From Escherichia phage Mansfield, in sequence record MK903282.1: a DNA stretch of 64,000 bases; one strand, 5' to 3'. The position numbers were made by a program, and so were the translations under genes. A model generated the notes under the pieces. The model saw only the letters and a list, made by a program, of their open reading frames with translations. It made no database searches and was not told the origin of the DNA. Shown in pieces: positions 1 to 14,105 of the stretch (positions within the stretch are counted from its first letter, which is position 1; each line of letters begins with the position of its first letter).

Positions 1-70
1 ATTTTAAAATCATTTAAATTAATTTTTTTTCATATCCTCATACTTATACTAAACTTATATTTATACGTAC

Positions 71-132
71 TATCCGTAAGATATAAGTAAAAACAAAGAC
101 TTGCGGCAATACGGATGATACGTCATGATACG
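71..132. repeat. additional copies of the CGTATCATC iteron
   Basis: TATCCGTA at 71-78; inverted TACGGATGATACGTCATGATACG at 110-132. Confidence 0.6.
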
Positions 133-297
133 CTTCGACCAGCCAACAGCGGCTAAGTCATTGATTTGCATAACAAGCGGCGAAAGGGATGGATTTCTTT
201 TATACGTATCAAACAGTACACCACGCACCACGGTACGCTATTCATTCAGCACTATGATTTGTGTACGTTTACAGCCAATTTGAACATCAATCTGCAC

Positions 298-326
298 TTG
301 AATATAATGTTCATTCATTGTATAAT
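298..326 (+). promoter_or_regulatory. sigma70-like promoter TTGAAT-N17-TATAAT
   Basis: TTGAAT at 298-303, 17-nt spacer, TATAAT at 321-326; sits inside the long ORF 166..834, so the true start is downstream. Confidence 0.45.
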
Positions 327-360
327 TCACACTATTAATTTGCACTATGGGATTTGCACT

Positions 361-834
361 ATGAGTCAAGATTATGTAGCAATGCCTGAAGACTTTGAAG
401 ACCCGCGATTTGCAGAGCATAATCAGGCATTATTCGATGAGTTCATTGACCTTGTTATTCAGGGCCATGACATGCGCGCAGCTTTTGCACTAGTATTTGG
501 CATGGAGGTTGCGACCGATAACTACACTGGCCAGCGAATCCTCTGCACGCAACGCAATCCGTACTACAAGATGCGCTACAAAAAGCGTATGGAAGAGATG
601 CCATTGAAGGAATTGTGGAGCGTAAAGAGTTCCATCCACAATTTAGTGAAGCTTGTGCGTGATCCAGAAGTCGCGGCGTCAGCCAAGCTTAATGCCATTC
701 GTGAACTGAATATCATCTACGGCATCACGATGATTGATGAGAATGGCAATAGTAAAATGGGCCGTTCCATGGACGATTTCTACAAGGATTTTGGAGAGGC
801 AGCCAAAGAGGGTGAGCAATTCTCCCGCCACTAG
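361..834 (+). CDS. hypothetical early protein (157 aa)
   Basis: ORF 166..834 trimmed to ATG 361 because the predicted promoter lies inside the longer frame; ATG is embedded in 11-mer copy 2; no catalytic motif recognised. Confidence 0.5.
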   Translation: MSQDYVAMPEDFEDPRFAEHNQALFDEFIDLVIQGHDMRAAFALVFGMEVATDNYTGQRILCTQRNPYYKMRYKKRMEEMPLKELWSVKSSIHNLVKLVRDPEVAASAKLNAIRELNIIYGITMIDENGNSKMGRSMDDFYKDFGEAAKEGEQFSRH

Positions 835-853
835 CCAATTTGCACTATAAAAC

Positions 854-887
854 GGCCCTAGAACACATTTTCTCCACTTCTAGGGCC
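854..887 (+). other. stem-loop (8-bp perfect stem GGCCCTAG/CTAGGGCC, 18-nt loop)
   Basis: Inverted repeat immediately after the 361..834 stop and 11-mer copy 3; no U-tract, so not a canonical terminator. Confidence 0.35.
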
Positions 888-948
888 ATCGGTAATACGA
901 CGGGGAAGGTTACAACCGTAAACGCGTTAGAAGGTGTATTATTATAAG

Positions 949-1212
949 TCATCTTTTAGTCACTTTACGTAACAATTTACGACCTTCCGCCGTCCAGTCG
1001 AACGACTCCACCAGCAGATTTGCACTATAACCTAAGACGATGCGCCCTTTCTCGTTATCGACCCGCCAACAAGTCTCGAATAGCATTCGATTTGCACTGT
1101 TAACTATCGCCGCAACGCGCGCTGGGTAAGCGCAATTTGCACTATGGTCGTAAAGGGATAAGGTGCGACCACTTCCGATGGATAACGTAGCGATGAGAAT
1201 AAGCGTATTCAT
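949..1212 (-). CDS. hypothetical protein (87 aa), doubtful
   Basis: ORF with GGTGG 3 nt upstream; carries three antisense 11-mer copies; CpG-rich. Confidence 0.3.
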   Translation of the reverse strand: MNTLILIATLSIGSGRTLSLYDHSANCAYPARVAAIVNSANRMLFETCWRVDNEKGRIVLGYSANLLVESFDWTAEGRKLLRKVTKR

Positions 1213-1263
1213 AAGCCACCAATTTGCACTATGAAAAGCGACCCCCGAAGGGCCGCCATTCGA

Positions 1264-1890
1264 TTAGATAATCTGGAATGTGTAGGACTTGTTGCCGAAC
1301 TCGAAGTTCAAGCGCCCAGCTTCCTTAAGCTTCATACGGAAGCGAATGTGCTTGCTATCCGGTAATCCCAGCGCGGCGAACGCTACGCGGACCGATTTAA
1401 ACTCGCCTACACCTTCGACCATAACGCCGTTACGGGTGAGACGCTTTTGCGCTACTTCCTTGTTATCCCAACTTTTTGCAATACCTTCGCTATTCGAACG
1501 GCGATGAGAAGGAGTTCCATTTTGCACTACGCAATTTGCACTATCGTTTAGGCCGCTTTTAACGAAGGCTTCATACTCTTCGTCGGTCATCGCGTCGAGT
1601 TCTTCCTGAGTCGGCTCGGCCTTTTTAACGACCGCACGCGCCTTATGCGTTTTTACATCGCTGGACACTTCCTCGCGCGACTTCGCGTCGGGAATGGGCG
1701 ATTCGTTGGACGGCGCATCGAGCGCGTTTAAGGACTCGATCAACGCGATTACGCGAGTCTCGGCGGTCCGGCGGTCCGCGAATTTCTTAATCGGCTTCGA
1801 ACCGGAATTTGCATTATAAAATGCAACGAGGTCGGCGGTCTTAGTTGCGATAACGTCGCCGCTAGTAGAGAAGCGATTTAAGCTAACCAT
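1264..1890 (-). CDS. hypothetical protein (208 aa)
   Basis: SD context TAGGAGTTTATT-ATG as in the paralog cassettes; no own promoter seen, likely co-transcribed with 1971..2255. Confidence 0.55.
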   Translation of the reverse strand: MVSLNRFSTSGDVIATKTADLVAFYNANSGSKPIKKFADRRTAETRVIALIESLNALDAPSNESPIPDAKSREEVSSDVKTHKARAVVKKAEPTQEELDAMTDEEYEAFVKSGLNDSANCVVQNGTPSHRRSNSEGIAKSWDNKEVAQKRLTRNGVMVEGVGEFKSVRVAFAALGLPDSKHIRFRMKLKEAGRLNFEFGNKSYTFQII

Positions 1891-1970
1891 AATAAACTCC
1901 TATTTGTTAGGGCGCTAGGCGCGAAAGAATTTTATTAAAGCGCCGCGCACGACGCTCTAAAAATCCTCTC

Positions 1971-2255
1971 TTACGCTTCGACGAGGGAGAAGGTCTCAAA
2001 TTCTTCTTCGCCCATAACGAGTAAAATATTACCGATTTCGACCGCTTCGAAGAAGTATCCGTTAACGTTTACTTCGAAGGCTTCGCGGTCCGATTCCGGT
2101 AACGCCGCGTAAAGTTTAAAAGCCTCGGCGACCGTTACCCCACCCGCTTCGATAGTTTGGTCTACGTTCGCGGCGTAGACTTCGGATAAATTTTGTTTTA
2201 CGCCGTAGTTCTCGACGATAGCGTTACGGATAGAAGAAACGTTAAGAATAGCCAT
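1971..2255 (-). CDS. acidic small protein, paralog family member (94 aa)
   Basis: TAGGAG SD 6 nt upstream; shares blocks (NVDxTIE, xNGyfyexxEIG) with 2889..3179; net charge about -13. Confidence 0.6.
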   Translation of the reverse strand: MAILNVSSIRNAIVENYGVKQNLSEVYAANVDQTIEAGGVTVAEAFKLYAALPESDREAFEVNVNGYFFEAVEIGNILLVMGEEEFETFSLVEA

Positions 2256-2323
2256 TTTAAACTCCTAGTTGGGAGAGGCGTTAACGACCTATTCGTTAAC
2301 TCATCCCGTCCCGATATGAGTAC

Positions 2324-2351
2324 ATTATAATATAGTGTAGAAAAAAGTAAA
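2324..2351 (-). promoter_or_regulatory. sigma70-like promoter (minus strand) TTTACT-N16-TATAAT
   Basis: Reverse complement of 2346-2351 is TTTACT and of 2324-2329 is TATAAT; downstream 5'UTR aligns with that of the 2889 cassette. Confidence 0.55.
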
Positions 2352-2395
2352 GCACTTTTTCGATAAAAATGCGATAAATTATTTTATCTTTTTTC

Positions 2396-2423
2396 TTTAC
2401 TTCTTCGTACACTCGCGTATACT
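2396..2423 (+). promoter_or_regulatory. sigma70-like promoter TTTACT-N16-TATACT
   Basis: Shares CTTTACTTCTTCGTACACT and TATATCGAGAGG blocks with the promoter at 2793. Confidence 0.55.
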
Positions 2424-2477
2424 TATTTATATCGAGAGGCGATGGGCCTCTTCTCTTCTACCATCGGGAGTTTTATT

Positions 2478-2780
2478 ATGGCTACTTTAATTTCTTCTAT
2501 CCTTACTTACGACGAAGACCGTTTAACCGTTCGCTCTCTTATCGCCGCCGTTAACGCGGAACTAGAATCTAGCGCCATTAAGGTCCGCGCCGTCGCCTTC
2601 ATCGGCCTTTCCTTCGACGATATTAAATACGCCGAACGTAGCGCCATCCGCTTCGCGAAGACCGACGACGAAGCCGTTACCCTTATCGAGACGGTTACGC
2701 CGCGCGGCGAAGCGTTAATTATCGTCGAGTATATCGACGTAGAAGGCGATAAGGCGTATAAATATTTTATCGCAAAATAA
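2478..2780 (+). CDS. acidic small protein, paralog family member (100 aa)
   Basis: ORF 2442..2780 trimmed to ATG 2478 (GGGAG SD 8 nt upstream); weaker similarity to the other two paralogs. Confidence 0.55.
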   Translation: MATLISSILTYDEDRLTVRSLIAAVNAELESSAIKVRAVAFIGLSFDDIKYAERSAIRFAKTDDEAVTLIETVTPRGEALIIVEYIDVEGDKAYKYFIAK

Positions 2781-2792
2781 CGAAAAAAGTGC

Positions 2793-2821
2793 TTTACTTC
2801 TTCGTACACTAAGACTATAAT
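2793..2821 (+). promoter_or_regulatory. sigma70-like promoter TTTACT-N17-TATAAT
   Basis: TTTACT 2793-2798, TATAAT 2816-2821; conserved 5'UTR then TAGGAG SD. Confidence 0.6.
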
Positions 2822-2888
2822 GTTTTATATCGAGAGGGGATGAGGTAGCGAATAGGTCGCTACCCTTCCGACTAACTAGGAGAATATT

Positions 2889-3179
2889 ATGATTACTTTA
2901 TCCGCTATCCGTTCCGCTCGCGTCGAAACTTCCGAAAACTCTAACGTATTTGGCGAAACGTTAGAGAGCGTTTATCTCTCTAACGTAGACGCGACTATCG
3001 AGTCTATTTATGAACCGATCAACTTCCTCGACCTTTACAAGTATCGCGACGAGGACGTAGTATCCTACCGCGTAACGATTAACGGCTTCGTCTATACGAT
3101 TACCGAAATCGGCGGCGAATATATCGCTGTACCGCAACTCGGCGGAGAGGTGACTTATTTTAAAATCGTCTCCTTATAA
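2889..3179 (+). CDS. acidic small protein, paralog family member (96 aa)
   Basis: TAGGAG SD; paralogous to 1971..2255; net acidic. Confidence 0.6.
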   Translation: MITLSAIRSARVETSENSNVFGETLESVYLSNVDATIESIYEPINFLDLYKYRDEDVVSYRVTINGFVYTITEIGGEYIAVPQLGGEVTYFKIVSL

Positions 3180-3199
3180 TACCCTTCCGTTACTAATAG

Positions 3200-3224
3200 G
3201 CCGCGCTTAGTCGCGGCTTTTCTT
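3200..3224 (+). terminator. rho-independent terminator
   Basis: GCCGCG / CGCGGC 6-bp stem, 6-nt loop, followed by TTTTCTT; 20 nt after the 2889..3179 stop. Confidence 0.6.
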
Positions 3225-3344
3225 CGTCCCTATCCCGATGCGCGTCCTACGCGAAAACTCCTTTATCCTTCCCTTCGTCGTCGCATAATCTTCTTCGAGA
3301 TGCGCCTTAGTTCGCATAAGAGGTATTACGTTAAATGGAGAACA

Positions 3345-3418
3345 TCGCGTAAGTCCTTGTTTTATATAGACACCTATATCGGACCGTTAGGGAGGGTCGC
3401 GTAAGTCGTTGTTTTATA
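3345..3418. repeat. 22-bp direct repeat x2 (TCGCGTAAGTC[C/G]TTGTTTTATA)
   Basis: Copies at 3345-3366 and 3397-3418, one mismatch, in non-coding DNA. Confidence 0.7.
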
Positions 3419-3543
3419 AAGGCGCAAAACTTTCCCTTCGTTCCGAACTAAAACGAGAAATATGCCGACCCTTCGACGAAAAATAGTACGCATGCGAAAT
3501 TACCGACATCTAGAATAATCCCCACCGATATTATCCTACACGC

Positions 3544-3597
3544 AATCATTAGCTTTCGAATCATTATGCTTCATATCATTATGCGTCGAATCATTCG
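3544..3597. repeat. four phased copies of ATCATT (period 14-16 nt)
   Basis: ATCATT at 3545, 3561, 3575, 3590, each flanked by similar G/AAATCATTATG context. Confidence 0.5.
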
Positions 3598-3695
3598 CTT
3601 TCAAATTGTAACGCTGGAAACTGTAACGGCGATTGATTATTGCGTTCGTGTGGTTTTTAGGGCATGGGTCTTTTGGTGCGTTTTGGTACTTGATG

Positions 3696-3808
3696 AAATT
3701 TGCAGTACACTAATCAAAATACGACACATTCGGTCCACTAACTTTTCAAAGAAAAAGTCCCAGACAGTACCGTACTATTTTGTGCCCACAGTAAATTTGC
3801 AGTACACT
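3696..3808. repeat. 16-bp direct repeat x2 (AAATTTGCAGTACACT)
   Basis: Copies at 3696-3711 and 3793-3808; shares the ATTTGCA core with the 11-mer array. Confidence 0.7.
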
Positions 3809-3842
3809 CCTGCGCGGCAGGCAAAATAAAGGGCCGCAGCAG

Positions 3843-3884
3843 CGACCCACGACCCACGACCCACGACCCACGACCCACGACCCA
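3843..3884. repeat. tandem heptamer (CGACCCA) x6
   Basis: Six perfect head-to-tail copies; followed by a 12-bp direct repeat CCCACTATTCAC at 3881 and 3909. Confidence 0.85.
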
Positions 3885-3913
3885 CTATTCACGGTTAAAG
3901 CACCATCCACCCA

Positions 3914-4309
3914 CTATTCACTCTTATGGGCATCACCAAAGCCATCCGCAATCTGGCTGATCAGCGATTCAATGGACACAGTTTTACCAATTGATCGAGC
4001 GGTAATAGCAAGCATATTATCAATCAAACCGCGATTGACTGCATATGTTTCAGGTTTTGATTCATCTCCAGGACAACCAAAAAGCTGGTCGCGCAAACTT
4101 TCGAGGGAACGCTCAATATTTTCCAGCTTCTCTTCTAAATCGGATTGGCGACGTAAAACCCATGTTAAGTCGCGGTTGCCGACTTCCAATCCATTATAAT
4201 CGCAAGATGGAACGTCAATTTTGATGCTGCCACCAAAGGCCATTCCGCTGCCTTTAGTATATGCGTGGTGAATAGAATCATTTTTATTTGACATATCATT
4301 ACCTTTCAT
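3914..4309 (-). CDS. hypothetical protein (131 aa)
   Basis: ORF; no motif recognised. Confidence 0.5.
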   Translation of the reverse strand: MKGNDMSNKNDSIHHAYTKGSGMAFGGSIKIDVPSCDYNGLEVGNRDLTWVLRRQSDLEEKLENIERSLESLRDQLFGCPGDESKPETYAVNRGLIDNMLAITARSIGKTVSIESLISQIADGFGDAHKSE

Positions 4310-4367
4310 GAGGGTGATTAACTTAAATTATAATAAAGCCGCATAGCGCGGCATTCAAATCGGTTTG

Positions 4368-4616
4368 TTAATTGTAACGATTGGATTCATCAATCGATAC
4401 CAACTGTGCTGGGTCGCCGGATACGGTCGAGCCAACGATACCCATCTGCTGAAAGAACTCTGAATAAACTTCCTTCCAGTATTTACGCGCTGCTTTCTGA
4501 GCCTGTCCTTTGCGCTTGAAGCTTTTACCTTGAAAGATGAAACGGTCGCTTGCCGCTCGATACTCCACCACACCTTCCAGCCATTGTAAGAATGCTACTG
4601 ATTCATTCTGATTCAT
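4368..4616 (-). CDS. hypothetical protein (82 aa)
   Basis: ORF; overlapping alternative frame 4355..4573 judged less likely. Confidence 0.4.
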   Translation of the reverse strand: MNQNESVAFLQWLEGVVEYRAASDRFIFQGKSFKRKGQAQKAARKYWKEVYSEFFQQMGIVGSTVSGDPAQLVSIDESNRYN

Positions 4617-4623
4617 GTTAACC

Positions 4624-5019
4624 TCAATATTTTAATAAGAAAGCACCCAACCAACTTTCCTCAATCTCGCGCCCAGTAGCCACACGGTCGGTCTTTGCCA
4701 TGGGTCTGGATTCGCCACATGGCAATCCGTCTTGTAGTTGTGTACTATTTCCAATTCTCACCATGACCTTTCCATCAGGGGCGATATAAGCGCGACAACC
4801 CATGATTTCGAGTCGTTGTAGACACTGGCGAATCGTTTTCAGCCTTTCACCGGACCGGATAGAGCGCGGTCGCGACCGCTGACCGTTCTTATTCACTGTA
4901 CGCTTAACGACAGGAATCTCATTGGTGCGTTGCGCTTTCGGTCGGTAGTAGGCTTCTTCTCCAGGAGTTGCGCCTGGCGTCAATTCGCGCTTGAGAGCCT
5001 TTTCAATATCGATGATCAT
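4624..5019 (-). CDS. hypothetical basic protein (131 aa)
   Basis: ORF; Arg/Lys-rich N-terminal half. Confidence 0.5.
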   Translation of the reverse strand: MIIDIEKALKRELTPGATPGEEAYYRPKAQRTNEIPVVKRTVNKNGQRSRPRSIRSGERLKTIRQCLQRLEIMGCRAYIAPDGKVMVRIGNSTQLQDGLPCGESRPMAKTDRVATGREIEESWLGAFLLKY

Positions 5020-5022
5020 GAT

Positions 5023-5121
5023 TTATGCCGCTGCAGCGTAAACAATTGCATAAGCAATTCCAAATAGCGCGGCGATGCATACCGTGCCCCAAAGTGCAAA
5101 GCGTCGTGACTCTTTATCCAT
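5023..5121 (-). CDS. small hydrophobic peptide (32 aa), tentative
   Basis: Not in the ORF track (<60 aa); ATG abuts the stop of 5122..5409 (TAAATG); translation MDKESRRFALWGTVCIAALFGIAYAIVYAAAA. Confidence 0.25.
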   Translation of the reverse strand: MDKESRRFALWGTVCIAALFGIAYAIVYAAAA

Positions 5122-5409
5122 TTATTTATCCCCAACGTCCATGAAATTAAACACTAATTTTGCCATGTCATCTTGTGAAACGACACTGTAGTGTTTAGGC
5201 AAATTGCTTTCTGACAATACCTTCTGGGCTTCTTCTGCCGTCTCAAACAAAGGAATGCACCAATTAACTGCGTCGCCAGAATCATTGCTATCAACTTGTT
5301 TCAAGAAAACCAAGCGGTTGTCTTCAGGATCAATTCCGCAAATCACGTATTTAGGCAATGCTTTTGCTTTTTGGGCCTTATCGATGTCTTCAAATTTCAT
5401 TTCATTCAC
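5122..5409 (-). CDS. hypothetical protein (95 aa)
   Basis: ORF. Confidence 0.5.
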   Translation of the reverse strand: MNEMKFEDIDKAQKAKALPKYVICGIDPEDNRLVFLKQVDSNDSGDAVNWCIPLFETAEEAQKVLSESNLPKHYSVVSQDDMAKLVFNFMDVGDK

Positions 5410-5483
5410 CTCACTTGTTAACGTATAATGAGTATAACTTAATAGAGCATAAAGTAAAGGCGCTTTTCAGCGCCTTGAGTGAA

Positions 5484-7775
5484 TTATTTTGCTGCCTTTA
5501 GCGCGGCTATCTCTGCCTTCAAATCTTCAATTTGCTTATTGAGATACTGCACACAACCCATCAAGTCCATGACGATTGGGTTGTTGTCCACTGAAGGTCG
5601 GTCGCGCGTCTTCTCGCCTATCTTATTGCCTTCCTCATCAAAAATATCCTCATAAGGCATTTCATGATGCTTGATGTATTGTGGTGCGATCACCTCCGCT
5701 TCTTCGGCAATAATCCCGAATCTTACGCGCTCTTGCTCGTCATCCTTGTAGACAAAGTTCACTAGACGCTGTGAATTGATTCTGTCCATCGCTTCCTTTG
5801 CATCTGCATCAACGATGTCCCTTTTATATTCAAGACCGGACGTGCCTTGAAGCGCGATTGTTCCAGATGTTGAAGTCGGGAAGTCGAGAGTGATTTCACC
5901 AGTACGGTTGCCATCCTTGCGACGGAAGAATAAACGATAGTAGCGCGTACCGTTGGTGCCCAGCGCGGCTTCAAAAAACATCATACCGCCTACAACCGTG
6001 TCAGGGACTGTTCCGCCGCCGATGTAGTTTGGCTTCATCGAAAGTTGCGGGTACTGCCCATCAATGATTGAAACGCTGCCAGCAAATACTGCGTTTCCTT
6101 TGGAAGTTATCATCCCAGGGGCAGTAAAATCACCTCTTTCGTTAAAGTCATATACCGCTGTCAATCCGCTTGTTCGGTTATACACGTTTAAACGTGCATA
6201 ATACGTCGCGCCAATCGCTGCGCGGATACGCCAACTCATTTGCGCTTCTTGAACGCCATTAACGTTGTAGCGTGAAATGATTTCGCCGCCGTCAGCAGTG
6301 GTGCCTGGGCCTGGCATAGCGGAGTCACCAGTGATCACACTCCAAGATGTATTCGCTGCAACAAACCCGCCAGATGCACGAATAACCCAGACGCCTACAA
6401 AGCAGTCAGGGCGCACCTTTGACGAGCGTCCGTAAGCGGCATTCGACCTGCTTGCGCTATAGTTGAATGTTCCGTATCTGGTTTCAGAAGAAGGCGTTGC
6501 AATATTTATTGCTTGGTTGTTTTGTGAAGAAAAAGAGAATGCACCATATCCATTGCCTGTTTGATATGTATACGCGGTGAAAGAGCCTGTTATGTCTGGG
6601 GCACCGTTTTCAAACACATCACCTGCAGCAGATGATATTCCGCCGTCACCACGTCCGAACAATTCCTTAATTGAACCCGTCTGCACGCCGTTAAAATCAG
6701 GTACGCGAAATGTCGTCGTACCGTTACCGGAAGAATAACGACCGCGTTTTTTCGAGTCTGCAAGCCAGTCAGCATCAGCAATAGGGGAAAGCATTTGTGC
6801 ATACGCCCAAAGCTCAGGCCAGTCTGCACGGTTAAGTAATTGACCGTCCGCTACGACCTCGTACGGTTGGATATATGCACGACTATTTCGTAAGTGGAAG
6901 TCCCCAACGCCATAGTTCATAACACCGTTCATGTTTGGCCCAACGGTGCCTGTATTTACTAAGTTTTCCACCCAACGCTTTGTCGCGGCATCATAATCGT
7001 TGACTGGGTCACCAGCAAGCGGCGTTGAACCTTGTGGGCGAATGTTTAACCATGCTTGAGCATTCTCTCCAGAGCCTGTGCCGCCCATGGAAGTCGGAAC
7101 AACGCTCTGATCGGCCACAGGTCCGAATCCGAATGCATCTTTCATCCCCTGAATTGTGGTTTGGCCTGTTCCACCGTTCGATATTGGGATGATGCTCTGC
7201 TCACTGTAGATTGCTTTCCAAGGACTCCAACCAACAACTGGGTCATGAACTCGAATAAATTGAGAACCATTATTGTTGTATATGGTGTATATTTGTACGC
7301 ATCCATCAGCGCCATTTGCATAATTCTGCTTAACTTCCAGAACACCAGCAATTTGGGCTGGATAGTTTAGAGCAGGTGATGCATTGCTTGATCTGTCTTG
7401 ATAATAATAACCAAACCAGGTGCCAGTCAGAGCATTGAGATTTATTCCAGATGGAATAGGCCCGAAATTTCTAACAGTATTGGTCAAAGATGCGGCAGTA
7501 GTACGAATTGAAAGTAAATCACCAGCCGCCCATGCACGTGCTGCCGTACCTTCTTGTGCACGTTGAACGGTCAGGACGTTTCCAACCACGGCTGTTACTG
7601 TGACGATTTCGAATTGGAGGCCTGTTGCAGCGTCGACGATTGTCGCCACTACACGCTCGTTTGCGCCCAAAGTCGGAAAACCCGACCCTGAGCGAATTGT
7701 TATTGTGGTGTCTGAAGTCGTCGTTGGTTGAGCCAGCGCGACCTCAAAGTTGTTTTTGAATATTAGCCTTGGCAT
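5484..7775 (-). CDS. tail fiber/tailspike with C-terminal intramolecular chaperone (peptidase S74-like) domain
   Basis: 763 aa, Gly/Ser/Thr/Asn-rich body; C-terminal ~110 aa (...SGLEYKRDIVD...RFGIIAEEAEVIAPQY...IEDLKAEIAALKAAK) matches the autoproteolytic chaperone domain of phage fibers. Confidence 0.75.
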   Translation of the reverse strand: MPRLIFKNNFEVALAQPTTTSDTTITIRSGSGFPTLGANERVVATIVDAATGLQFEIVTVTAVVGNVLTVQRAQEGTAARAWAAGDLLSIRTTAASLTNTVRNFGPIPSGINLNALTGTWFGYYYQDRSSNASPALNYPAQIAGVLEVKQNYANGADGCVQIYTIYNNNGSQFIRVHDPVVGWSPWKAIYSEQSIIPISNGGTGQTTIQGMKDAFGFGPVADQSVVPTSMGGTGSGENAQAWLNIRPQGSTPLAGDPVNDYDAATKRWVENLVNTGTVGPNMNGVMNYGVGDFHLRNSRAYIQPYEVVADGQLLNRADWPELWAYAQMLSPIADADWLADSKKRGRYSSGNGTTTFRVPDFNGVQTGSIKELFGRGDGGISSAAGDVFENGAPDITGSFTAYTYQTGNGYGAFSFSSQNNQAINIATPSSETRYGTFNYSASRSNAAYGRSSKVRPDCFVGVWVIRASGGFVAANTSWSVITGDSAMPGPGTTADGGEIISRYNVNGVQEAQMSWRIRAAIGATYYARLNVYNRTSGLTAVYDFNERGDFTAPGMITSKGNAVFAGSVSIIDGQYPQLSMKPNYIGGGTVPDTVVGGMMFFEAALGTNGTRYYRLFFRRKDGNRTGEITLDFPTSTSGTIALQGTSGLEYKRDIVDADAKEAMDRINSQRLVNFVYKDDEQERVRFGIIAEEAEVIAPQYIKHHEMPYEDIFDEEGNKIGEKTRDRPSVDNNPIVMDLMGCVQYLNKQIEDLKAEIAALKAAK

Positions 7776-9450: not shown

Positions 9451-9483
9451 ATGAATAAAATATTAACACATAATTGGAAAGTC

Positions 9484-10911
9484 ATGTACCAGTTGAATCC
9501 TGCTTTAAGAGAAGTTTGGAAGACGAAAGCGCGATACAAAGTAATATACGGCGGTCGTGCATCTTCCAAATCGCATGATGCCGCTGGTTTTGCTATTTAT
9601 TTGGCGGCAAACTTTAAATTAAAATTCCTTTGCGTTCGACAATTCCAGAACAAGATTTCTGAATCAGTATATACGCTATTAAAAGATAAGATAGAGATTT
9701 CTGATTTTAAAGACGAGTTCAACTTATTAAAGAACTCTATTGAACACAAAAGAACAAAATCTGAATTCTTATTTTACGGTATCGCACGCAACGTTGACGA
9801 AATCAAATCAACAGAAGGCGTTGATGTTCTTTGGCTTGAAGAAGCGCATGCACTGACTGAAGAACAATGGGACATTATTGAGCCGACCATTCGTAAGGAA
9901 GGGTCAGAAATATGGATCATATTTAACCCTGATGAAGAGGCCGATTTCGTCTACCAGAACTTTGTCATGCGACCGCCGAAGAATGCCATCGTTAAGAAGA
10001 TCAACTGGCAAGACAACCCATTTTTGTCACAAACAATGCTGGATGTTATTGCTGGCATGTATGAGCGCGACCCGAAAAAGGCAGAACACGTTTATGGCGG
10101 AGTACCGAAGACAGGCGGCGACAAGTCGGTCATCAACCGTGCATTCGTCAAGGCCGCGCTAAACCTCCACAAACACCCTACGCTGGGATGGAGCTTGTCA
10201 GGGTCTAACCGTATAGGCTTTGACGTGGCGGACGACGGCGACGACTTAAACGCCACAGCATTTGTCACGGGCAACGTATTGCGCGGCATCAAGACATGGG
10301 AAGGTCTGGAAGATGAATTGCTTAAGTCCGCAAGCGGAGTTTGGAAAGACGCATTGACATTCGGCGCATCAATTACCTATGACGCAATCGGTGTTGGTGC
10401 ATTTGCTGGTTCAAAATTTGATGAGCTTAATGAGTATGCAATCCATGAAAATCCAACATTCCCAAGAATCGAATTTAATGCGTTCAACGCGCAAGGTGCT
10501 GTTGATGATCCTGATGATGTTTTCCTTGAGTTACCACACGTTGAAATACTCAATAAAGACCATTTCGCAAACATAAAAGCGCAAAAATGGACTGAGATTG
10601 CCGAACGATTCAGGAAGACATATGAATATGCGACAGGGCAAGCCGTATATCCGACCGATGAGTTGATTTCCATCGACACAGACGGCATTCCAGAACTTGG
10701 GATTCCTGCTTGGTCTGCGGAAGAGATTGAGACGTTTCTTTTTGAGATGTCAGCGCCGCGCAAAGATACGTCTGTACTTGGCAAGTTCAAAGTTGAATCG
10801 AAAAAAGATATGGCAAAGCGTGGAGTCAAATCGCCTAACAAAGCGGACGCCGCAATCATGGCATTGATGAAACCAATTGTTGCAGCATCCGGCTTCTTCT
10901 CTAACCTTTAA
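9484..10911 (+). CDS. terL: terminase large subunit
   Basis: N-terminal ATPase with Walker A-like GGRASSKS and Walker B-like VLWLEE; C-terminal nuclease-like half; start moved from 9451 to 9484. Confidence 0.9.
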   Translation: MYQLNPALREVWKTKARYKVIYGGRASSKSHDAAGFAIYLAANFKLKFLCVRQFQNKISESVYTLLKDKIEISDFKDEFNLLKNSIEHKRTKSEFLFYGIARNVDEIKSTEGVDVLWLEEAHALTEEQWDIIEPTIRKEGSEIWIIFNPDEEADFVYQNFVMRPPKNAIVKKINWQDNPFLSQTMLDVIAGMYERDPKKAEHVYGGVPKTGGDKSVINRAFVKAALNLHKHPTLGWSLSGSNRIGFDVADDGDDLNATAFVTGNVLRGIKTWEGLEDELLKSASGVWKDALTFGASITYDAIGVGAFAGSKFDELNEYAIHENPTFPRIEFNAFNAQGAVDDPDDVFLELPHVEILNKDHFANIKAQKWTEIAERFRKTYEYATGQAVYPTDELISIDTDGIPELGIPAWSAEEIETFLFEMSAPRKDTSVLGKFKVESKKDMAKRGVKSPNKADAAIMALMKPIVAASGFFSNL

Positions 10912-11691: not shown

Positions 11692-11729
11692 ATAGATTGA
11701 TTCCCTTTCACTGTCAGGTGGCGTTAACA

Positions 11730-14105
11730 ATGAAAATTCTTGGCATAAAACTCTGGGAGAAGACGCAACCAGAAGCCGAACCAGCGGAGATGCCGCCAGG
11801 CGACCCATTGGCACCGTTTGAACGCCTTGAAAGGCGCGGCAGCGGTCAACGCTGGGAAAAGACTGAAAGCAATCGACCGACCTTTAAAACGGTTGATGAC
11901 TTCCCTTTATATGAACCTGATATTAATGGCGACGGTGTTGCTATCATAAAAGGTCGTTCAGTCGATTCCGCAACAGTATCCAAAAAGGTTATGGATAATG
12001 CCTTGAAGAACATCAGTTCAGAAGGGCAGGTCAACCCATACACAGTCCCTATTCAACTTCAAAACTGGTATTTGTCACAGTCATTCATCGGCTATCAAGC
12101 TTGTGCCATCATCGCACAGCACTGGCTGGTGAACAAGGCGTGTTCCATGGTAGGCCGCGATGCGGTCCGTAAAGGCTGGGAAGTCAAATCCAGTTCTGAG
12201 TCAGAATTATCAGTGCAGGCCAGCGAACGCCTAAAGCAAATTGATAAAGAATTTAATATCAAAGAGCACTTAGTTGAAGCCGAACGATTCAAAAATATTT
12301 TTGGTATCCGCGTCATCATATTTGATGTGCGTAGTGATGACCCAGAATACTACAGCAAACCTTTTAACATTGATGGTGTGACAAAGGGGTCTTATAAGGG
12401 AATCATTCAGGTTGACCCTTATTGGATGATGCCATTTTTGACGTCTGAAAACACCGCCGACCCTGCATCACAGCACTTCTATGATCCAGAATACTGGGTG
12501 ATCAGTGGACAACGTTATCATCGAAGCCACCTGATCATTTTGCGCAACGATGAGCCAGCTGATATTCTCAAGCCGACTTATATTTACGGCGGCATTCCTT
12601 TGACTCAGCAGATTTATGAACGCATCTATGCCGCTGAGCGTACCGCTAACGAAGCGCCATTGCTGGCGATGTCCAAGCGTACAACCACGCTGCGGACCGA
12701 CGTTGACAAGGCGATTGCCAATGAGAGGTCTTTTGCTGAACGTCTGATGATGTGGATTAAGTACCGCGACAACTATGCAGTCAAAGTGCTTGGTCAAAAA
12801 GAAGAGATGGACCAGTTCGACATCAACTTGTCAGACTTCGATAGCATCATCATGAACCAGTACCAGCTGGTGGCTGCAATCGCAAAAGTTCCGTCAACCA
12901 AACTTCTTGGGACTTCGCCAAAAGGCTTTAACGCCACTGGTGAATTTGAGATGGTCAGCTATCACGAAGAGTTGGAAACTTGCCAGCAGCATGACCTGAC
13001 AAAAATTCTCGACCGCCATTACAAAATCCTTCTCAAATCAGAAGGGGTGGAAGTCGATGTTAAGGTCGCATGGGAACCAGTTGGCTCACTTACTGCTACT
13101 CAACTTGCAGAAATCAACGACAAGCGAGCTAACACTGGCAAAACTCTTATTGATGCTGGCGTCATTTCTCCTGATGAAGAGCGCGACCGCATCAAAGACG
13201 ACAAAAACAGCGGCTACAACCGTCTGCCGGAAGACGCAGCAGAAGAAACCCCAGGGATGTCTCCAGAGAATATGGCATTGCTTGGCAAGTCTGCTGGTGA
13301 AGTCCTGCAAGGCAAGGCCGATATTGAACAGGCGAAAGCTGATGTCGTTAAGATGGGCGGCCAGTTCTATAGCGAAACAGGTATTATGCCAGAAGGTGCC
13401 GCGCGTGGTGAGTTGGCGGAAAACCCTGACAAAGCGCCTGTCGAAATCAACATGGACGATACCGATGATGAATCAAGCCATCAGGTTGATGTCCTAACGC
13501 AGTTGAAAGAAGGTCTGGAGGGTATTGCTGATTATTACCTGAAAGAAGGTCAGGATGTGGATTTTGACCCTCAAAAAGATTCACGGTCGGTACAACCGTC
13601 TACCCTTCCAAGCGTCAAAGGTAATGTCGTTAACTTACGACACAACGTTGGAAAGATGGATGCAGCATCGTTACCTAAGATGAAGTTGCACGGGCTGATT
13701 CTTGGGATTGAGAATCCTCGCAACAGCATCCGTAGAGGGAACAGCCTTGACGGTGAATGGGCAGTCAAGATGCCGCATCACTACGGATTCATCAAGGGCA
13801 CTAAGGGCGCGGACGGCGATGAAGTCGACTGCTTTGTTGGTCCAAATATGAAGTCGCCGAAGGTCTTTATCGTTAACCAGAATGATAATTACTCTGGCGA
13901 GTTTGATGAACACAAGTGCATGCTTGGATTCGATTCAGCAGAAGAAGCGAAAGAAGCTTATCAAGCATCATTTGGTAACGGGTGGAACGGATTTGACTCA
14001 ATCCACGAATTGGATGTAAACTCGTTCAAGGAGTGGTTGAAGGGTGATTGCTCTCAAGCATACGGAGCACTCAATAATCCTACTAATTCACCGAAGCAAG
14101 GTTGA
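11730..14105 (+). CDS. portal protein with C-terminal pyrophosphatase-like extension
   Basis: Large protein directly after terminase with acidic C-terminal region; start trimmed to 11730 (GGTGG SD); C-terminal ~150 aa contain HYGFI...DGDEVDC (13779-13832). Confidence 0.7.
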   Translation: MKILGIKLWEKTQPEAEPAEMPPGDPLAPFERLERRGSGQRWEKTESNRPTFKTVDDFPLYEPDINGDGVAIIKGRSVDSATVSKKVMDNALKNISSEGQVNPYTVPIQLQNWYLSQSFIGYQACAIIAQHWLVNKACSMVGRDAVRKGWEVKSSSESELSVQASERLKQIDKEFNIKEHLVEAERFKNIFGIRVIIFDVRSDDPEYYSKPFNIDGVTKGSYKGIIQVDPYWMMPFLTSENTADPASQHFYDPEYWVISGQRYHRSHLIILRNDEPADILKPTYIYGGIPLTQQIYERIYAAERTANEAPLLAMSKRTTTLRTDVDKAIANERSFAERLMMWIKYRDNYAVKVLGQKEEMDQFDINLSDFDSIIMNQYQLVAAIAKVPSTKLLGTSPKGFNATGEFEMVSYHEELETCQQHDLTKILDRHYKILLKSEGVEVDVKVAWEPVGSLTATQLAEINDKRANTGKTLIDAGVISPDEERDRIKDDKNSGYNRLPEDAAEETPGMSPENMALLGKSAGEVLQGKADIEQAKADVVKMGGQFYSETGIMPEGAARGELAENPDKAPVEINMDDTDDESSHQVDVLTQLKEGLEGIADYYLKEGQDVDFDPQKDSRSVQPSTLPSVKGNVVNLRHNVGKMDAASLPKMKLHGLILGIENPRNSIRRGNSLDGEWAVKMPHHYGFIKGTKGADGDEVDCFVGPNMKSPKVFIVNQNDNYSGEFDEHKCMLGFDSAEEAKEAYQASFGNGWNGFDSIHELDVNSFKEWLKGDCSQAYGALNNPTNSPKQG

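What the first reader, a model, noticed from the sequence alone, without database searches (positions are those of the whole stretch)
164..1817. Dense same-orientation array of the 11-mer ATTTGCACTAT confined to the left 1.8 kb
Seven exact copies and at least three one-mismatch copies lie within about 1.5 kb, two as near-tandem pairs (338/352, 1519/1534), all on the plus strand, both in the 5'UTR/start codon of gene 361..834 and inside minus-strand ORFs. An exact 11-mer is expected about 0.015 times per strand in 64 kb by chance, and I saw no exact copy elsewhere. The related 16-mer AAATTTGCAGTACACT (3696, 3793) shares the ATTTGCA core. Irregular spacing argues against CRISPR. Candidate roles are an operator array for an early regulator (possibly the 361..834 product), a packaging or partition recognition site, or an origin component.
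Basis: seen in the sequence. Interest (0 to 1): 0.75.

Follow-up and report, generated by a model that had tools for sequence, protein, structure and literature searches.

The report
Small-terminase gene ringed by 11-mer sites
A short DNA word repeated about ten times, always on the same strand, surrounds the previously unannotated small-terminase gene at the left end of an E. coli phage genome, and is most likely where the DNA-packaging machinery recognises the viral chromosome, though binding has not been shown.

Summary
ATTTGCACTAT occurs 7 times exactly, with 2 one-mismatch and about 3 weaker copies. All lie on the + strand between 164 and 1817, and none occurs elsewhere in the 64 kb (chance expectation 0.06).

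The window is the left 64 kb of Escherichia phage Mansfield (Wifcevirus). Position 1 is the physical left end, and the array lies inside the 3,673-bp direct terminal repeat (DTR).

Gene 361..834 is not a transcription regulator. It is the small terminase (TerS), homologous to the solved Pseudomonas phage E217 TerS (PDB 7UXE, E=9e-33). Every Wifcevirus record I inspected calls it hypothetical.

The array is kept in all 14 relatives. The consensus RATTTGCACTAY recurs as 9-14 co-oriented copies around terS in two Pantoea Kylevirus phages. Their TerS is only 42-44% identical, and most copies sit at different positions.

The motif overrides coding sequence: it forces AGT-GCA-AAT (Ser-Ala-Asn) into minus-strand genes.

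Best reading (confidence about 0.5): a TerS recognition array analogous to lambda cosB or to pac sites. The pair at 338/352 may also auto-repress terS.

The 16-mer at 3696/3793 is a separate conserved element at the right DTR boundary. Binding is untested, and E217 TerS reportedly showed no DNA binding in vitro.

The parts
1..3673 (.). Left copy of the direct terminal repeat (DTR); position 1 is the physical left end
   Evidence: The first 3701 bp of the vB_EcoM_WFH (WFH) record are repeated exactly at its right end, and that end maps to window 3673. The Mansfield announcement reports a 3,673-bp DTR from PhageTerm, with the genome opened at its boundary. The window's gene C product is 100% identical to CPT_Mansfield_004.
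154..174 (+). Weak motif copy ATTTGCATAAC (164-174), abutted by an IHF (host DNA-bending protein) consensus match (154-166, minus strand), within an almost invariant non-coding block 60-240
   Evidence: The IHF match is a lead only: 8 matches in the window against 4.4 expected.
280..326 (+). Two overlapping sigma-70 promoters (TTGAAC-17-TATAAT and TTGAAT-17-TATAAT) driving terS
   Evidence: 10 of 12 matches each. Invariant in relatives. Kyle has TTGACG-17-TATAAT at the same place.
338..348 (+). Motif copy 1, in the terS 5' leader (about +5 to +15 of the proximal promoter, inferred)
   Evidence: Identical in 15 of 15 genomes.
352..362 (+). Motif copy 2, overlapping the terS start codon (ATG 361-363)
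   Evidence: Present in 15 of 15 genomes, 7 of them with one extra T.
361..834 (+). terS, the small terminase subunit (157 aa)
   Evidence: phmmer against the PDB hits 7UXE 'Small terminase' at E=9e-33, covering residues 3-147. It also matches phrog_4783. It is annotated 'hypothetical protein' in every Wifcevirus record inspected.
483..493 (+). Degenerate copy TTTTGCACTAG inside terS (codes A-F-A-L-V of the N-terminal region I read as the DNA-binding helix-turn-helix (HTH))
   Evidence: invariant in 15 genomes. It may be kept by coding constraint alone.
838..848 (+). Motif copy 3, 3 bp after the terS stop codon and just before the bidirectional terminator hairpin 854-887
   Evidence: The terminator is annotated in WFH at 853-888.
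949..1212 (-). Gene B (87 aa; signal-peptide-like N-terminus, two Cys), which carries three copies in one reading frame
   Evidence: It has a homologue in Kyle (29% identity, E=1e-12) and in PA1.
1018..1028 (+). Motif copy 4, abutting the Chi complement CCACCAGC at 1008-1015 (Chi is the RecBCD recombination hotspot GCTGGTGG); codes Y-S-A-N on the minus strand
   Evidence: It is ATTCGCACTAT in 7 of 15 genomes, a variant also allowed in Kyle.
1090..1100 (+). Motif copy 5 (ATTTGCACTGT here, exact in the 14 relatives); codes N-S-A-N; positional homologue of Kyle site 1075
1135..1145 (+). Motif copy 6; codes H-S-A-N
1222..1232 (+). Motif copy 7, between the gene B start and the gene C terminator; positional homologue of Kyle site 1474
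   Evidence: Identical in 15 of 15 genomes.
1264..1890 (-). Gene C (208 aa; function unknown), a conserved neighbour of terS across PB1-like phages
   Evidence: 50% identity to Kyle gp004. The C-terminal domain is 54% identical to PB1 gp80. 37% identity to the WR01 protein. No Pfam or PDB match.
1519..1544 (+). Near-tandem pair: degenerate ATTTTGCACTAC (1519-1530) and exact copy 8 (1534-1544), lying in a 7-aa insertion (NDSANCV) of gene C that is absent from the Kyle homologue
   Evidence: This stretch is replaced in ECML-117 and Ro157lw.
1807..1817 (+). One-mismatch copy ATTTGCATTAT; the least conserved copy
   Evidence: identical in 9 of 15 genomes.
3696..3808 (+). Two copies of AAATTTGCAGTACACT (3696-3711 and 3793-3808): a separate element in the invariant block at the right DTR boundary, not part of the array
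   Evidence: CAGTACACTAATCA is conserved about 30 bp right of the boundary in Kyle.
9451..10911 (+). terL, the large terminase subunit and partner of TerS
   Evidence: Pfam Terminase_3, E=3e-37. Bas99_0001 is annotated as terminase large subunit.

Best explanation
The repeats are the recognition array for the phage's own small terminase (TerS). TerS is encoded in the middle of the array, at 361..834. This makes the array the counterpart of lambda cosB or of the pac sites of headful-packaging phages, in a myovirus with a 3.7-kb direct terminal repeat (DTR).

Shown here:
- The gene is an E217-type TerS.
- The array lies inside the terminal repeat and starts 338 bp from the left terminus.
- Every copy points the same way.
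- The consensus RATTTGCACTAY is asymmetric.
- The array is kept across two phage genera while individual sites move.
- It is imposed on coding sequence.

Inferred:
- Each helix-turn-helix (HTH) of the ring-shaped TerS oligomer reads one asymmetric site. Co-oriented copies would then recruit one or several rings onto the repeat.
- This marks the DNA as viral, fixes the direction in which TerL starts translocating (rightwards from the left boundary), and positions TerL to cut at the separately conserved boundary sequences.
- The two copies at +5 to +30 of the strong terS promoters let TerS limit its own synthesis.
For: 1. The 361..834 product matches PDB 7UXE (E217 small terminase) at E=9e-33 over residues 3-147. 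TerL is at 9451..10911. No other TerS is annotated.
2. Window position 1 is the physical left end and 1..3673 is the DTR. The layout is therefore terminus, then sites, then terS, as in lambda (cosN, cosB, Nu1; from my own knowledge).
3. Exclusivity and polarity:
- Mansfield has about 12 copies at 164-1817 and none elsewhere.
- The rest of the WFH and Bas99 genomes are free of the motif.
- Kyle has 9 T[TC]GCACTA copies at 580-1476 and none elsewhere in 69.5 kb.
- PA1 has 13 copies at 5270-6145 around terS at 5001-5483.
- In the array regions of all three phages, all 37 GCACTA-anchored sites are on the terS strand.
4. The array is conserved in 14 Wifcevirus genomes, with 6-8 exact 10-mers each. 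Sites are less polymorphic than background: 4/77 against 141/1051 columns, Fisher p=0.02.
5. Between genera (TerS 42-44% identical) only some sites are positional homologues. Others are gained in tolerant places, for example a 7-aa insertion in gene C. The array is what is selected, not the individual positions.
6. The DNA word overrides coding. Ser-Ala-Asn (SAN) occurs 4 times in 295 codons of genes B and C, always as AGT-GCA-AAT. Elsewhere it occurs 3 times in 17,610 codons and is never encoded that way; codon usage predicts that combination at 0.014.
7. Separate conserved signals sit at both repeat boundaries, so the array need not itself be the cut site.
8. Myosmarvirus, the most divergent 3.6-kb-DTR lineage (TerS 30-35% identical), has a different triple repeat directly after terS.
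Against: - No binding data exist.
- The array is absent from Pbunavirus, Myosmarvirus, Carpasinavirus, Tabernariusvirus and about 25 metagenomic loci that encode the same TerS family. It is therefore not a family-wide trait.
- It spans about 1.5 kb and begins at least 338 bp from the end. That is much larger and further from the terminus than lambda cosB or SPP1 pac.
- Spacing shows no helical phasing.
- The motif is not avoided elsewhere beyond Markov expectation.
- terS has strong host-type promoters, which suggests early expression. That is unusual for a packaging gene.
- Another DNA-binding protein, for example the unidentified gene C product, cannot be excluded.
Confidence: 0.5

Rival explanations
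1. The copies are binding sites for another phage protein that controls the early genes of the terminal repeat. Candidates are the unidentified gene C product or a protein encoded elsewhere in the genome. The array would then act as an operator or silencer, not as a packaging signal.
For: The pair at 338/352 sits at about +5 to +30 of two strong sigma-70 promoters. The repeat carries six genes with host-type promoters and terminators. Gene C is a conserved neighbour of terS with no recognisable fold.
Against: Only 2 of about 12 copies are near a promoter. The rest lie inside coding regions, on the antisense strand of genes B and C, or after stop codons. Kyle and PA1 have no copies in the terS leader. 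The sites are asymmetric and strictly co-oriented, unlike typical dyad operators. Gene C is also present in lineages without the array. The gene C model was unusable (pLDDT 37.7).
Confidence: 0.2
2. The copies are a polar signal read by a translocating enzyme, in the manner of Chi or KOPS (the oriented 8-mers that direct the FtsK DNA translocase). The reader could be RecBCD-like, a helicase, or TerL itself. The signal would protect the exposed left end or orient processing of it.
For: The strand polarity is absolute: 37 of 37 sites. In Kyle, PA1 and Myosmarvirus the same zone and strand carry dense arrays of the Chi complement CCACCAGC. Kyle has 9 in its first 2 kb, PA1 has 7, and WR01/MTx has 4. 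This is the orientation RecBCD reads when it enters at the left end (the orientation rule is from my own knowledge). In Mansfield one Chi complement abuts copy 1018.
Against: The sequence bears no resemblance to Chi (4 of 8 positions). Kyle and PA1 carry both arrays, so the motif is not a substitute for Chi. Hosts as different as E. coli and Pantoea would need a common reader. No enzyme is known that reads this word.
Confidence: 0.12
3. The copies are iterons of a replication origin located in the terminal repeat.
For: Direct, co-oriented repeats, some of them inside a gene, recall the iterons of lambda ori inside gene O (from my own knowledge). The primase genes lie just upstream in the circular map.
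Against: Spacing is irregular (14 to 355 bp) and unphased, with no adjacent AT-rich unwinding element among the sites. No initiator gene is recognisable. The array is absent from relatives that share the replication genes.
Confidence: 0.08
4. The pattern is chance, a duplicated segment, or a repeated peptide in the proteins.
For: Three copies in gene B all code Ser-Ala-Asn in the same reading frame.
Against: None of 100 shuffles reaches 7 copies. The flanks are unrelated. Copies also lie in non-coding DNA and in the terS leader. The codon choice is the improbable AGT-GCA-AAT every time. The array recurs in other genera at other positions.
Confidence: 0.01

Closest known systems
Phage lambda cosB (gpNu1 binding sites R3, R2, R1 plus IHF site I1) next to cosN and the Nu1 gene
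   Same: The order is genome end, then repeated TerS-binding words, then the terS gene. The sites lie on the side that would be packaged first. A host-factor (IHF) consensus match lies between the end and the first strong site (a lead only).
   Different: Lambda has three 16-bp sites within about 120 bp and in mixed orientation. Here there are about 12 copies of an 11-12-bp word, all co-oriented, over 1.5 kb and inside genes. Lambda has 12-nt cohesive ends, whereas this phage has a 3.7-kb direct repeat. TerS binding is proven for lambda and untested here.
pac sites of headful-packaging phages lying in or at the terS gene (SPP1 pacL/pacR boxes, P1 pac hexamer repeats in pacA, P22 pac in gene 3)
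   Same: Short repeated words are recognised by a ring-shaped TerS and embedded in, or flanking, the terS gene itself. In P1, seven short repeats fall into two clusters.
   Different: Those sites span 22-270 bp and lead to imprecise headful cutting and permuted genomes. This phage has fixed ends (PhageTerm). The extent and copy number are several-fold larger here.
E217 / Pbunavirus small terminase (PDB 7UXE, decamer)
   Same: The protein family is the same (E=9e-33). terS lies far from terL, after a long non-coding region and convergent with the gene C homologue.
   Different: Pbunavirus genomes are described as circularly permuted and terminally redundant. No repeat array was found near their terS. 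E217 TerS showed no appreciable DNA binding in vitro.
Short repeat arrays inside the T7/T3 terminal repeat, and the T3/T7 pacB signal
   Same: Arrays of short direct repeats lie inside a direct terminal repeat of a phage with fixed ends. Their function is presumed to be in concatemer processing.
   Different: The T7 repeat is 160 bp and non-coding, and its arrays are tandem 7-mers. Here the repeat is 3.7 kb and coding, and the copies are dispersed. No sequence or protein homology was tested.
Chi (GCTGGTGG) and KOPS polar sequences
   Same: Strict strand polarity relative to a DNA end. The motif co-occurs with real Chi-complement arrays in sister genera.
   Different: Chi and KOPS are spread genome-wide and read by host translocases. 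This word is confined to 1.5 kb and is phage-lineage specific.

Membership tests
Small-terminase recognition site (cosB / pac type) | Lies next to or within the terS gene and near the packaging-start end of the genome | tested here: met
   The copies run from 164 to 1817 around terS at 361..834, and the left terminus is at position 1.
Small-terminase recognition site (cosB / pac type) | Contains repeated short sequence elements specific to the phage lineage | tested here: met
   RATTTGCACTAY is present in Wifcevirus and Kylevirus only. A different triple repeat sits after terS in Myosmarvirus.
Small-terminase recognition site (cosB / pac type) | Bound specifically by the TerS protein | not testable with these tools
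The only literature on the family reports no appreciable binding by E217 TerS.
Small-terminase recognition site (cosB / pac type) | Required in cis for packaging initiation | not testable with these tools
   This needs genetics or in vitro packaging.
Small-terminase recognition site (cosB / pac type) | Compact (tens to a few hundred bp) and immediately adjacent to the cleavage site | tested here: not met
   The first strong copy is 338 bp from the end, and the array spans about 1.5 kb.
E217-type small terminase protein (for gene 361..834) | Significant full-length sequence similarity to a TerS of solved structure | tested here: met
   7UXE, E=9e-33, query residues 3-147.
E217-type small terminase protein (for gene 361..834) | Conserved synteny: distant from terL and convergent with the gene C homologue | tested here: met
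E217-type small terminase protein (for gene 361..834) | Ring oligomer (decamer) with peripheral HTH domains | not tested
   No multimer model was made. The N-terminal FDxYIDLxxxG[YH] segment aligns across the family.
Iteron-type replication origin | Regularly spaced (about 20-23 bp or helically phased) direct repeats next to an AT-rich unwinding region and an initiator gene | tested here: not met
   Spacings range from 14 to 355 bp with no phase, and no initiator is recognised.
parS / plasmid-type centromere | Adjacent parA/parB genes and usually palindromic sites | tested here: not met
   The curated Bas99 annotation names no Par genes, and no DTR gene matches a Par family. The word is asymmetric.
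Promoters of a phage-encoded RNA polymerase or sigma factor | A phage RNAP or sigma gene is present, and the motif lies upstream of genes genome-wide in the sense orientation | tested here: not met
   No RNAP is annotated. The copies are confined to 1.5 kb, and most are antisense to the genes that contain them.
CRISPR array | Regular repeat-spacer periodicity | tested here: not met
   The spacing is irregular, the word is only 11 bp long, and copies lie inside genes.
Chi/KOPS-type polar signal | Strict co-orientation relative to a DNA end or replichore | tested here: met
   37 of 37 sites are on one strand.
Chi/KOPS-type polar signal | Read by a translocating enzyme; distributed along the molecule | tested here: inconclusive
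   The distribution is confined to 1.5 kb (not met). Whether an enzyme reads the word cannot be tested here.

The most novel reading that the evidence does not exclude
The word is not a passive docking site. It would be a phage-specific polar signal, read in one direction by a moving motor (the terminase itself or a host helicase-nuclease). On this reading it is a viral counterpart of Chi or KOPS that sets the direction and fate of the exposed left end of a long-terminal-repeat genome. In sister genera it would work side by side with the genuine Chi-complement arrays found in the same zone and on the same strand.
Probability: 0.1. Interest if true: 0.85.

Novelty: new variant of a known kind. 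Interest (0 to 1): 0.6.

Why it matters
How phages with long direct terminal repeats recognise their DNA and set their ends is, to my knowledge, poorly understood. For the PB1/E217 family the small terminase has a solved structure but no known DNA target, and no binding was seen in vitro.

This array supplies a concrete 11-12-bp candidate target with natural variants in three lineages. It also identifies the unannotated terS gene of Wifcevirus and Kylevirus, and it points to separate conserved signals at both repeat boundaries.

That turns the question 'what does this TerS recognise?' into a simple gel-shift or DAP-seq experiment. It also matters for rebooting or engineering these therapeutic-candidate E. 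coli phages. Recoding genes in the first 2 kb could destroy a cis-acting signal hidden in their codons.

Tried and rejected
- **Phage-RNAP promoter idea.** GCACTAT resembles the CACTATA of T7/SP6 promoters. Rejected because no RNAP gene is present and the copies are antisense inside genes.
- **Sigma-54 -12 element (TTGCA).** No GG -24 partner is visible in the flanks.
- **Sigma-70 reading of the word.** The hexamers are adjacent rather than 17 bp apart, and the promoter scan places the real promoters upstream at 280-326.
- **Avoidance of the word elsewhere.** Not significant under order 2-3 Markov models.
- **Helical phasing or regular spacing.** None found.
- **Gene B as an MGMT-like DNA binder.** The Pfam hit is only E=0.09. 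The protein has a signal-peptide-like N-terminus and conserved Cys pairs, so I rejected it as the binder.
- **Gene C identity.**
  - No Pfam, PHROG-function or PDB match.
  - The single-sequence AlphaFold model was unusable (pLDDT 37.7).
  - The homologue search returned only near-identical Wifcevirus proteins.
  - The depositor's 'Gam-like' note on the WR01 homologue is not backed by Pfam.
- **Equivalent arrays in other lineages.** None in PB1, Carpasina, tabernarius, Gekk3-15 or 23 IMG/VR loci. The repeated words found there look like ribosome-binding regions of minus-strand genes.
- **IMG/VR scan for TTTGCACTA-N50-80-TTTGCACTA.** Only the Wifcevirus loci carry terS. The other hits are regular 22/23-bp or 66-bp arrays of unrelated elements.
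- **Rfam.** No match in 1-4400.
- **Literature.** No paper mentions the word in a phage context, and the primary E217 terminase paper was not available.
- **'Transcriptional regulator' annotation in ECML-117.** It maps to a 69-codon ORF in the non-coding region around 3190-3400, not to any gene of the array.
Full report
**Observation**

ATTTGCACTAT occurs exactly seven times, at 338, 352, 838, 1018, 1135, 1222 and 1534. All copies are on the + strand and none occurs elsewhere in 64 kb. Dinucleotide-preserving shuffles give a mean of 0.06, and none of 100 reaches seven.

At one mismatch only two more copies appear, at 1090 and 1807.

A word-enrichment scan of the first 2 kb against the rest of the window finds only this word family. 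TGCACTAT and GCACTATG are absent from 2001-64000.

**What the window is**

Megablast finds 28 Wifcevirus genomes at 93-96% identity. Three lines of evidence identify the window as phage Mansfield:
- The gene C product is 100% identical to CPT_Mansfield_004, on a 68,120-bp contig.
- The published genome-closure primer matches 3722-3741 exactly, and the relatives differ there.
- The record of vB_EcoM_WFH (WFH), a Wifcevirus relative, starts at window position 1. Its first 3701 bp are repeated exactly at its right end, and that end maps to window 3673. This equals the 3,673-bp direct terminal repeat (DTR) that PhageTerm predicted for Mansfield, and Korf et al. report about 3.7 kb.

The array therefore lies inside the terminal repeat, starting 338 bp from the physical left end.

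**The gene in the middle**

The 361..834 product has no Pfam match. It does match PDB 7UXE, 'Small terminase', at E=9e-33 over residues 3-147. That entry is the decameric TerS of Pseudomonas phage E217.

Every Wifcevirus and Kylevirus record I inspected calls this gene hypothetical. TerL is at 9451..10911 (Terminase_3, E=3e-37) and the portal is at 11697..14105.

No RNA polymerase, Par protein or initiator is annotated in the curated genome of Bas99, a Wifcevirus relative.

terS is preceded by two overlapping consensus-like sigma-70 promoters at 280-326. Copies 338 and 352 therefore fall at about +5 to +30 of the transcript, and copy 352 overlaps the start codon.

**Anatomy of the word**

I aligned 37 GCACTA-anchored sites from Mansfield, Pantoea phage Kyle and Pantoea phage PA1. 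The result is an asymmetric consensus, R-A-T-[T/C]-[T/C]-G-C-A-C-T-A-Y-R-A. All 37 sites are on the terS strand.

Spacings run from 10 to 355 bp with no helical phase.

Copies occur in five kinds of place: the terS leader, inside terS, just after its stop codon, in an intergenic gap, and antisense inside the minus-strand genes B (949..1212) and C (1264..1890). A signal tied to one transcript is therefore unlikely. I read the word as acting on DNA and as polar relative to the genome end.

**The word overrides coding**

In genes B and C every copy sits in the frame xAT-AGT-GCA-AAT. Ser-Ala-Asn (SAN) therefore appears four times in 295 codons, always with those codons.

In 17,610 other codons of the window, Ser-Ala-Asn occurs three times and is never encoded that way. 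Codon usage predicts that combination with probability 0.014.

Copy 1534 lies in a 7-residue insertion of gene C that the Kyle homologue lacks.

**Conservation**

All 14 Wifcevirus genomes examined keep 6-8 exact TTTGCACTAT copies at the same places and none on the other strand.

The seven strongest sites have 4 of 77 polymorphic columns against 141 of 1051 in the surrounding 150-1300 (Fisher p=0.02). This is a modest signal, because the genus is only 4-7% divergent.

One of the four changes (T to C at the fourth base of copy 1018) yields a variant that is common in Kyle.

**Other genera**

Pantoea phage Kyle (Kylevirus; TerS 42-44% identical) has a 3603-bp exact terminal repeat with terS at 357. 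It carries nine T[TC]GCACTA copies at 580-1476, all on the terS strand, and none elsewhere in 69.5 kb.

Pantoea phage PA1 has 13 [TC]GCACTA copies at 5270-6145 around terS at 5001-5483, and none on the other strand of the 10.5-kb locus.

Only some sites are positional homologues:
- Window 1090 corresponds to Kyle 1075 and PA1 5741.
- Window 1222 corresponds to Kyle 1474.
- Three gene B sites are shared with PA1.

The rest differ in position and even in reading frame. What is conserved is the array, not the individual sites.

The array is absent from Pbunavirus PB1, Carpasina, tabernarius, Gekk3-15, Myosmarvirus and 23 other IMG/VR loci that encode this TerS family.

Myosmarvirus also has a 3.56-kb terminal repeat. 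It carries a different triple repeat, AAAAATAAGCATGCTT, directly after terS. Pbunaviruses are described as circularly permuted.

**The boundaries have their own signals**

*Right boundary.*
- The non-coding block 3600-3810 across the right boundary is almost invariant in 14 genomes.
- It holds both 16-mers.
- It holds an inverted pair, TTGATTATTG and CACTAATCAA, centred on 3675.
- Kyle keeps CAGTACACTAATCA about 30 bp right of its boundary but not the ATTTGCA part.

The 16-mer is therefore a different element from the array.

*Left boundary.*
- Sequences outside the repeat are unalignable among three haplotype groups.
- Conservation begins about 45 bp before position 1 and continues through an invariant non-coding stretch at 60-240.
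- That stretch includes an IHF (host DNA-bending protein) consensus match at 154-166, next to the weak copy at 164 (a lead only).

**Mechanism proposed**

*Shown:* a TerS gene ringed by a conserved, exclusive, co-oriented, asymmetric word, inside the terminal repeat and near the left end.

*Inferred:*
- The helix-turn-helix (HTH) of each TerS subunit reads one word.
- Co-orientation suits a cyclic oligomer, or several of them, loading in one sense.
- The bound array marks viral DNA, sets rightward translocation from the left boundary, and presents the boundary signals to TerL.
- The 338/352 pair lets TerS repress its own strong promoters. This fits the report that excess TerS reduces E217 infectivity.

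The layout of end, sites and terS gene parallels lambda cosN, cosB and Nu1, and pac sites inside terS genes (from my own knowledge).

**Why confidence is only about 0.5**

- There is no binding evidence.
- E217 TerS showed no appreciable DNA binding in vitro.
- The array is far larger and further from the end than any known cosB or pac site.
- It is missing from most lineages of the TerS family.

**Rivals**

- **An operator or silencer for another early protein (0.2).** Against this, the sites are asymmetric and co-oriented, and most lie in intragenic antisense positions.
- **A polar signal read by a translocase (0.12).** The absolute polarity favours this. So do the Chi-complement arrays in the same zone of Kyle, PA1 and Myosmarvirus (Chi is the RecBCD recombination hotspot GCTGGTGG). 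Against it, those phages carry both arrays.
- **Origin iterons (0.08).** Against this, the spacing is irregular and no initiator gene is recognisable.
- **Chance, duplication or a peptide repeat.** Refuted.

**Verdict**

This is a real, conserved cis-acting array, most likely the recognition site of a newly identified small terminase. It is a new variant of the cos/pac class of packaging signals, in a long-terminal-repeat myovirus. The claim can be tested directly with a gel-shift assay.

Noticed in passing
L025 (Pantoea phage Kyle) 255-1972; L027 (PA1) 4861-6433; L020+L028 (Serratia WR01) around terS; window 1008-1015: Dense arrays of CCACCAGC, the complement of the Chi recombination hotspot, sit on the terS strand near the left genome end. 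Kyle has 9 in its first 2 kb (about 0.03 expected), PA1 has 7, and WR01/MTx has 4, with almost none in the opposite sense. This is the orientation RecBCD reads when it enters at the left end, which suggests end protection or recombination between the terminal repeats. Mansfield has only one, abutting motif copy 1018.
   Followed up: partly
window 3600-3810: This non-coding block spans the right boundary of the terminal repeat (3673) and is almost invariant in 14 genomes. It contains both AAATTTGCAGTACACT copies and an inverted pair, TTGATTATTG (3633-3642) and CACTAATCAA (3708-3717), centred on the boundary. CAGTACACTAATCA is also conserved next to the boundary in Kyle. It is probably the right-end processing signal.
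   Followed up: partly
window 3544-3595: A 15-bp tandem repeat, AATCATTATGCTTCA, occurs 3.5 times just inside the right boundary. Phage Bas100 lacks 45 bp (three units) of it, so copy number varies.
   Followed up: partly
window 3843-3885: A perfect heptamer tandem repeat, CGACCCA x6, lies just outside the terminal repeat, next to a minus-strand terminator.
   Followed up: no
window 1-240 and the sequence left of the boundary in relatives (L002, L003, L009, L011-L017): DNA just outside the left boundary is unalignable among three haplotype groups of otherwise 95% identical phages. Conservation begins about 45 bp before the boundary (ACGGATGATACGGATGATAC...AATTAACTCC|ATTTT). Inside the repeat, 60-240 is an invariant non-coding block. 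It holds an inverted pair, ACGTACTATCCGTA (65-78) and TACGGATGATACGT (110-123), and an IHF consensus match at 154-166.
   Followed up: partly
L056, L057, L020+L028 (Serratia Myosmarvirus), directly after terS: Three copies of AAAAATAAGCATGCTT, which contains the palindrome AAGCATGCTT, lie within 100 bp downstream of terS and are interleaved with Chi-complement copies. This lineage lacks the GCACTA array and may use this repeat as its equivalent.
   Followed up: partly
window 2324-2351 (-), 2396-2423 (+), 2793-2821 (+): Three near-identical strong sigma-70 promoters (GTGCTTTACTT...[G]TACACT...TATAAT/TATACT) drive the small genes of the terminal repeat in both directions. The shared spacer word TACACT (GTACACT in the two + strand promoters) also occurs in the boundary 16-mer.
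   Followed up: no
window 1971-2255 (-) and 2889-3179 (+): Two small acidic proteins of the terminal repeat are paralogues (33% identity, E=3e-7). Neither has a family match. They are likely early host-takeover or anti-defence proteins.
   Followed up: partly
window 11697-14105: The portal protein (Phage_portal_3) carries a C-terminal inorganic pyrophosphatase-like domain (Pfam InPase, E=2.5e-46).
   Followed up: no
L023 (PB1) 5430-5480 and 5700-5980: Upstream of terS, PB1 has an AT-rich island (with GGTAATTTGGTAATTTGGA). Its position corresponds to the left repeat boundary of the enterobacterial relatives. It is followed by a strongly C/A-rich, strand-biased stretch resembling the Chi-complement zone of Kyle and WR01.
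   Followed up: no
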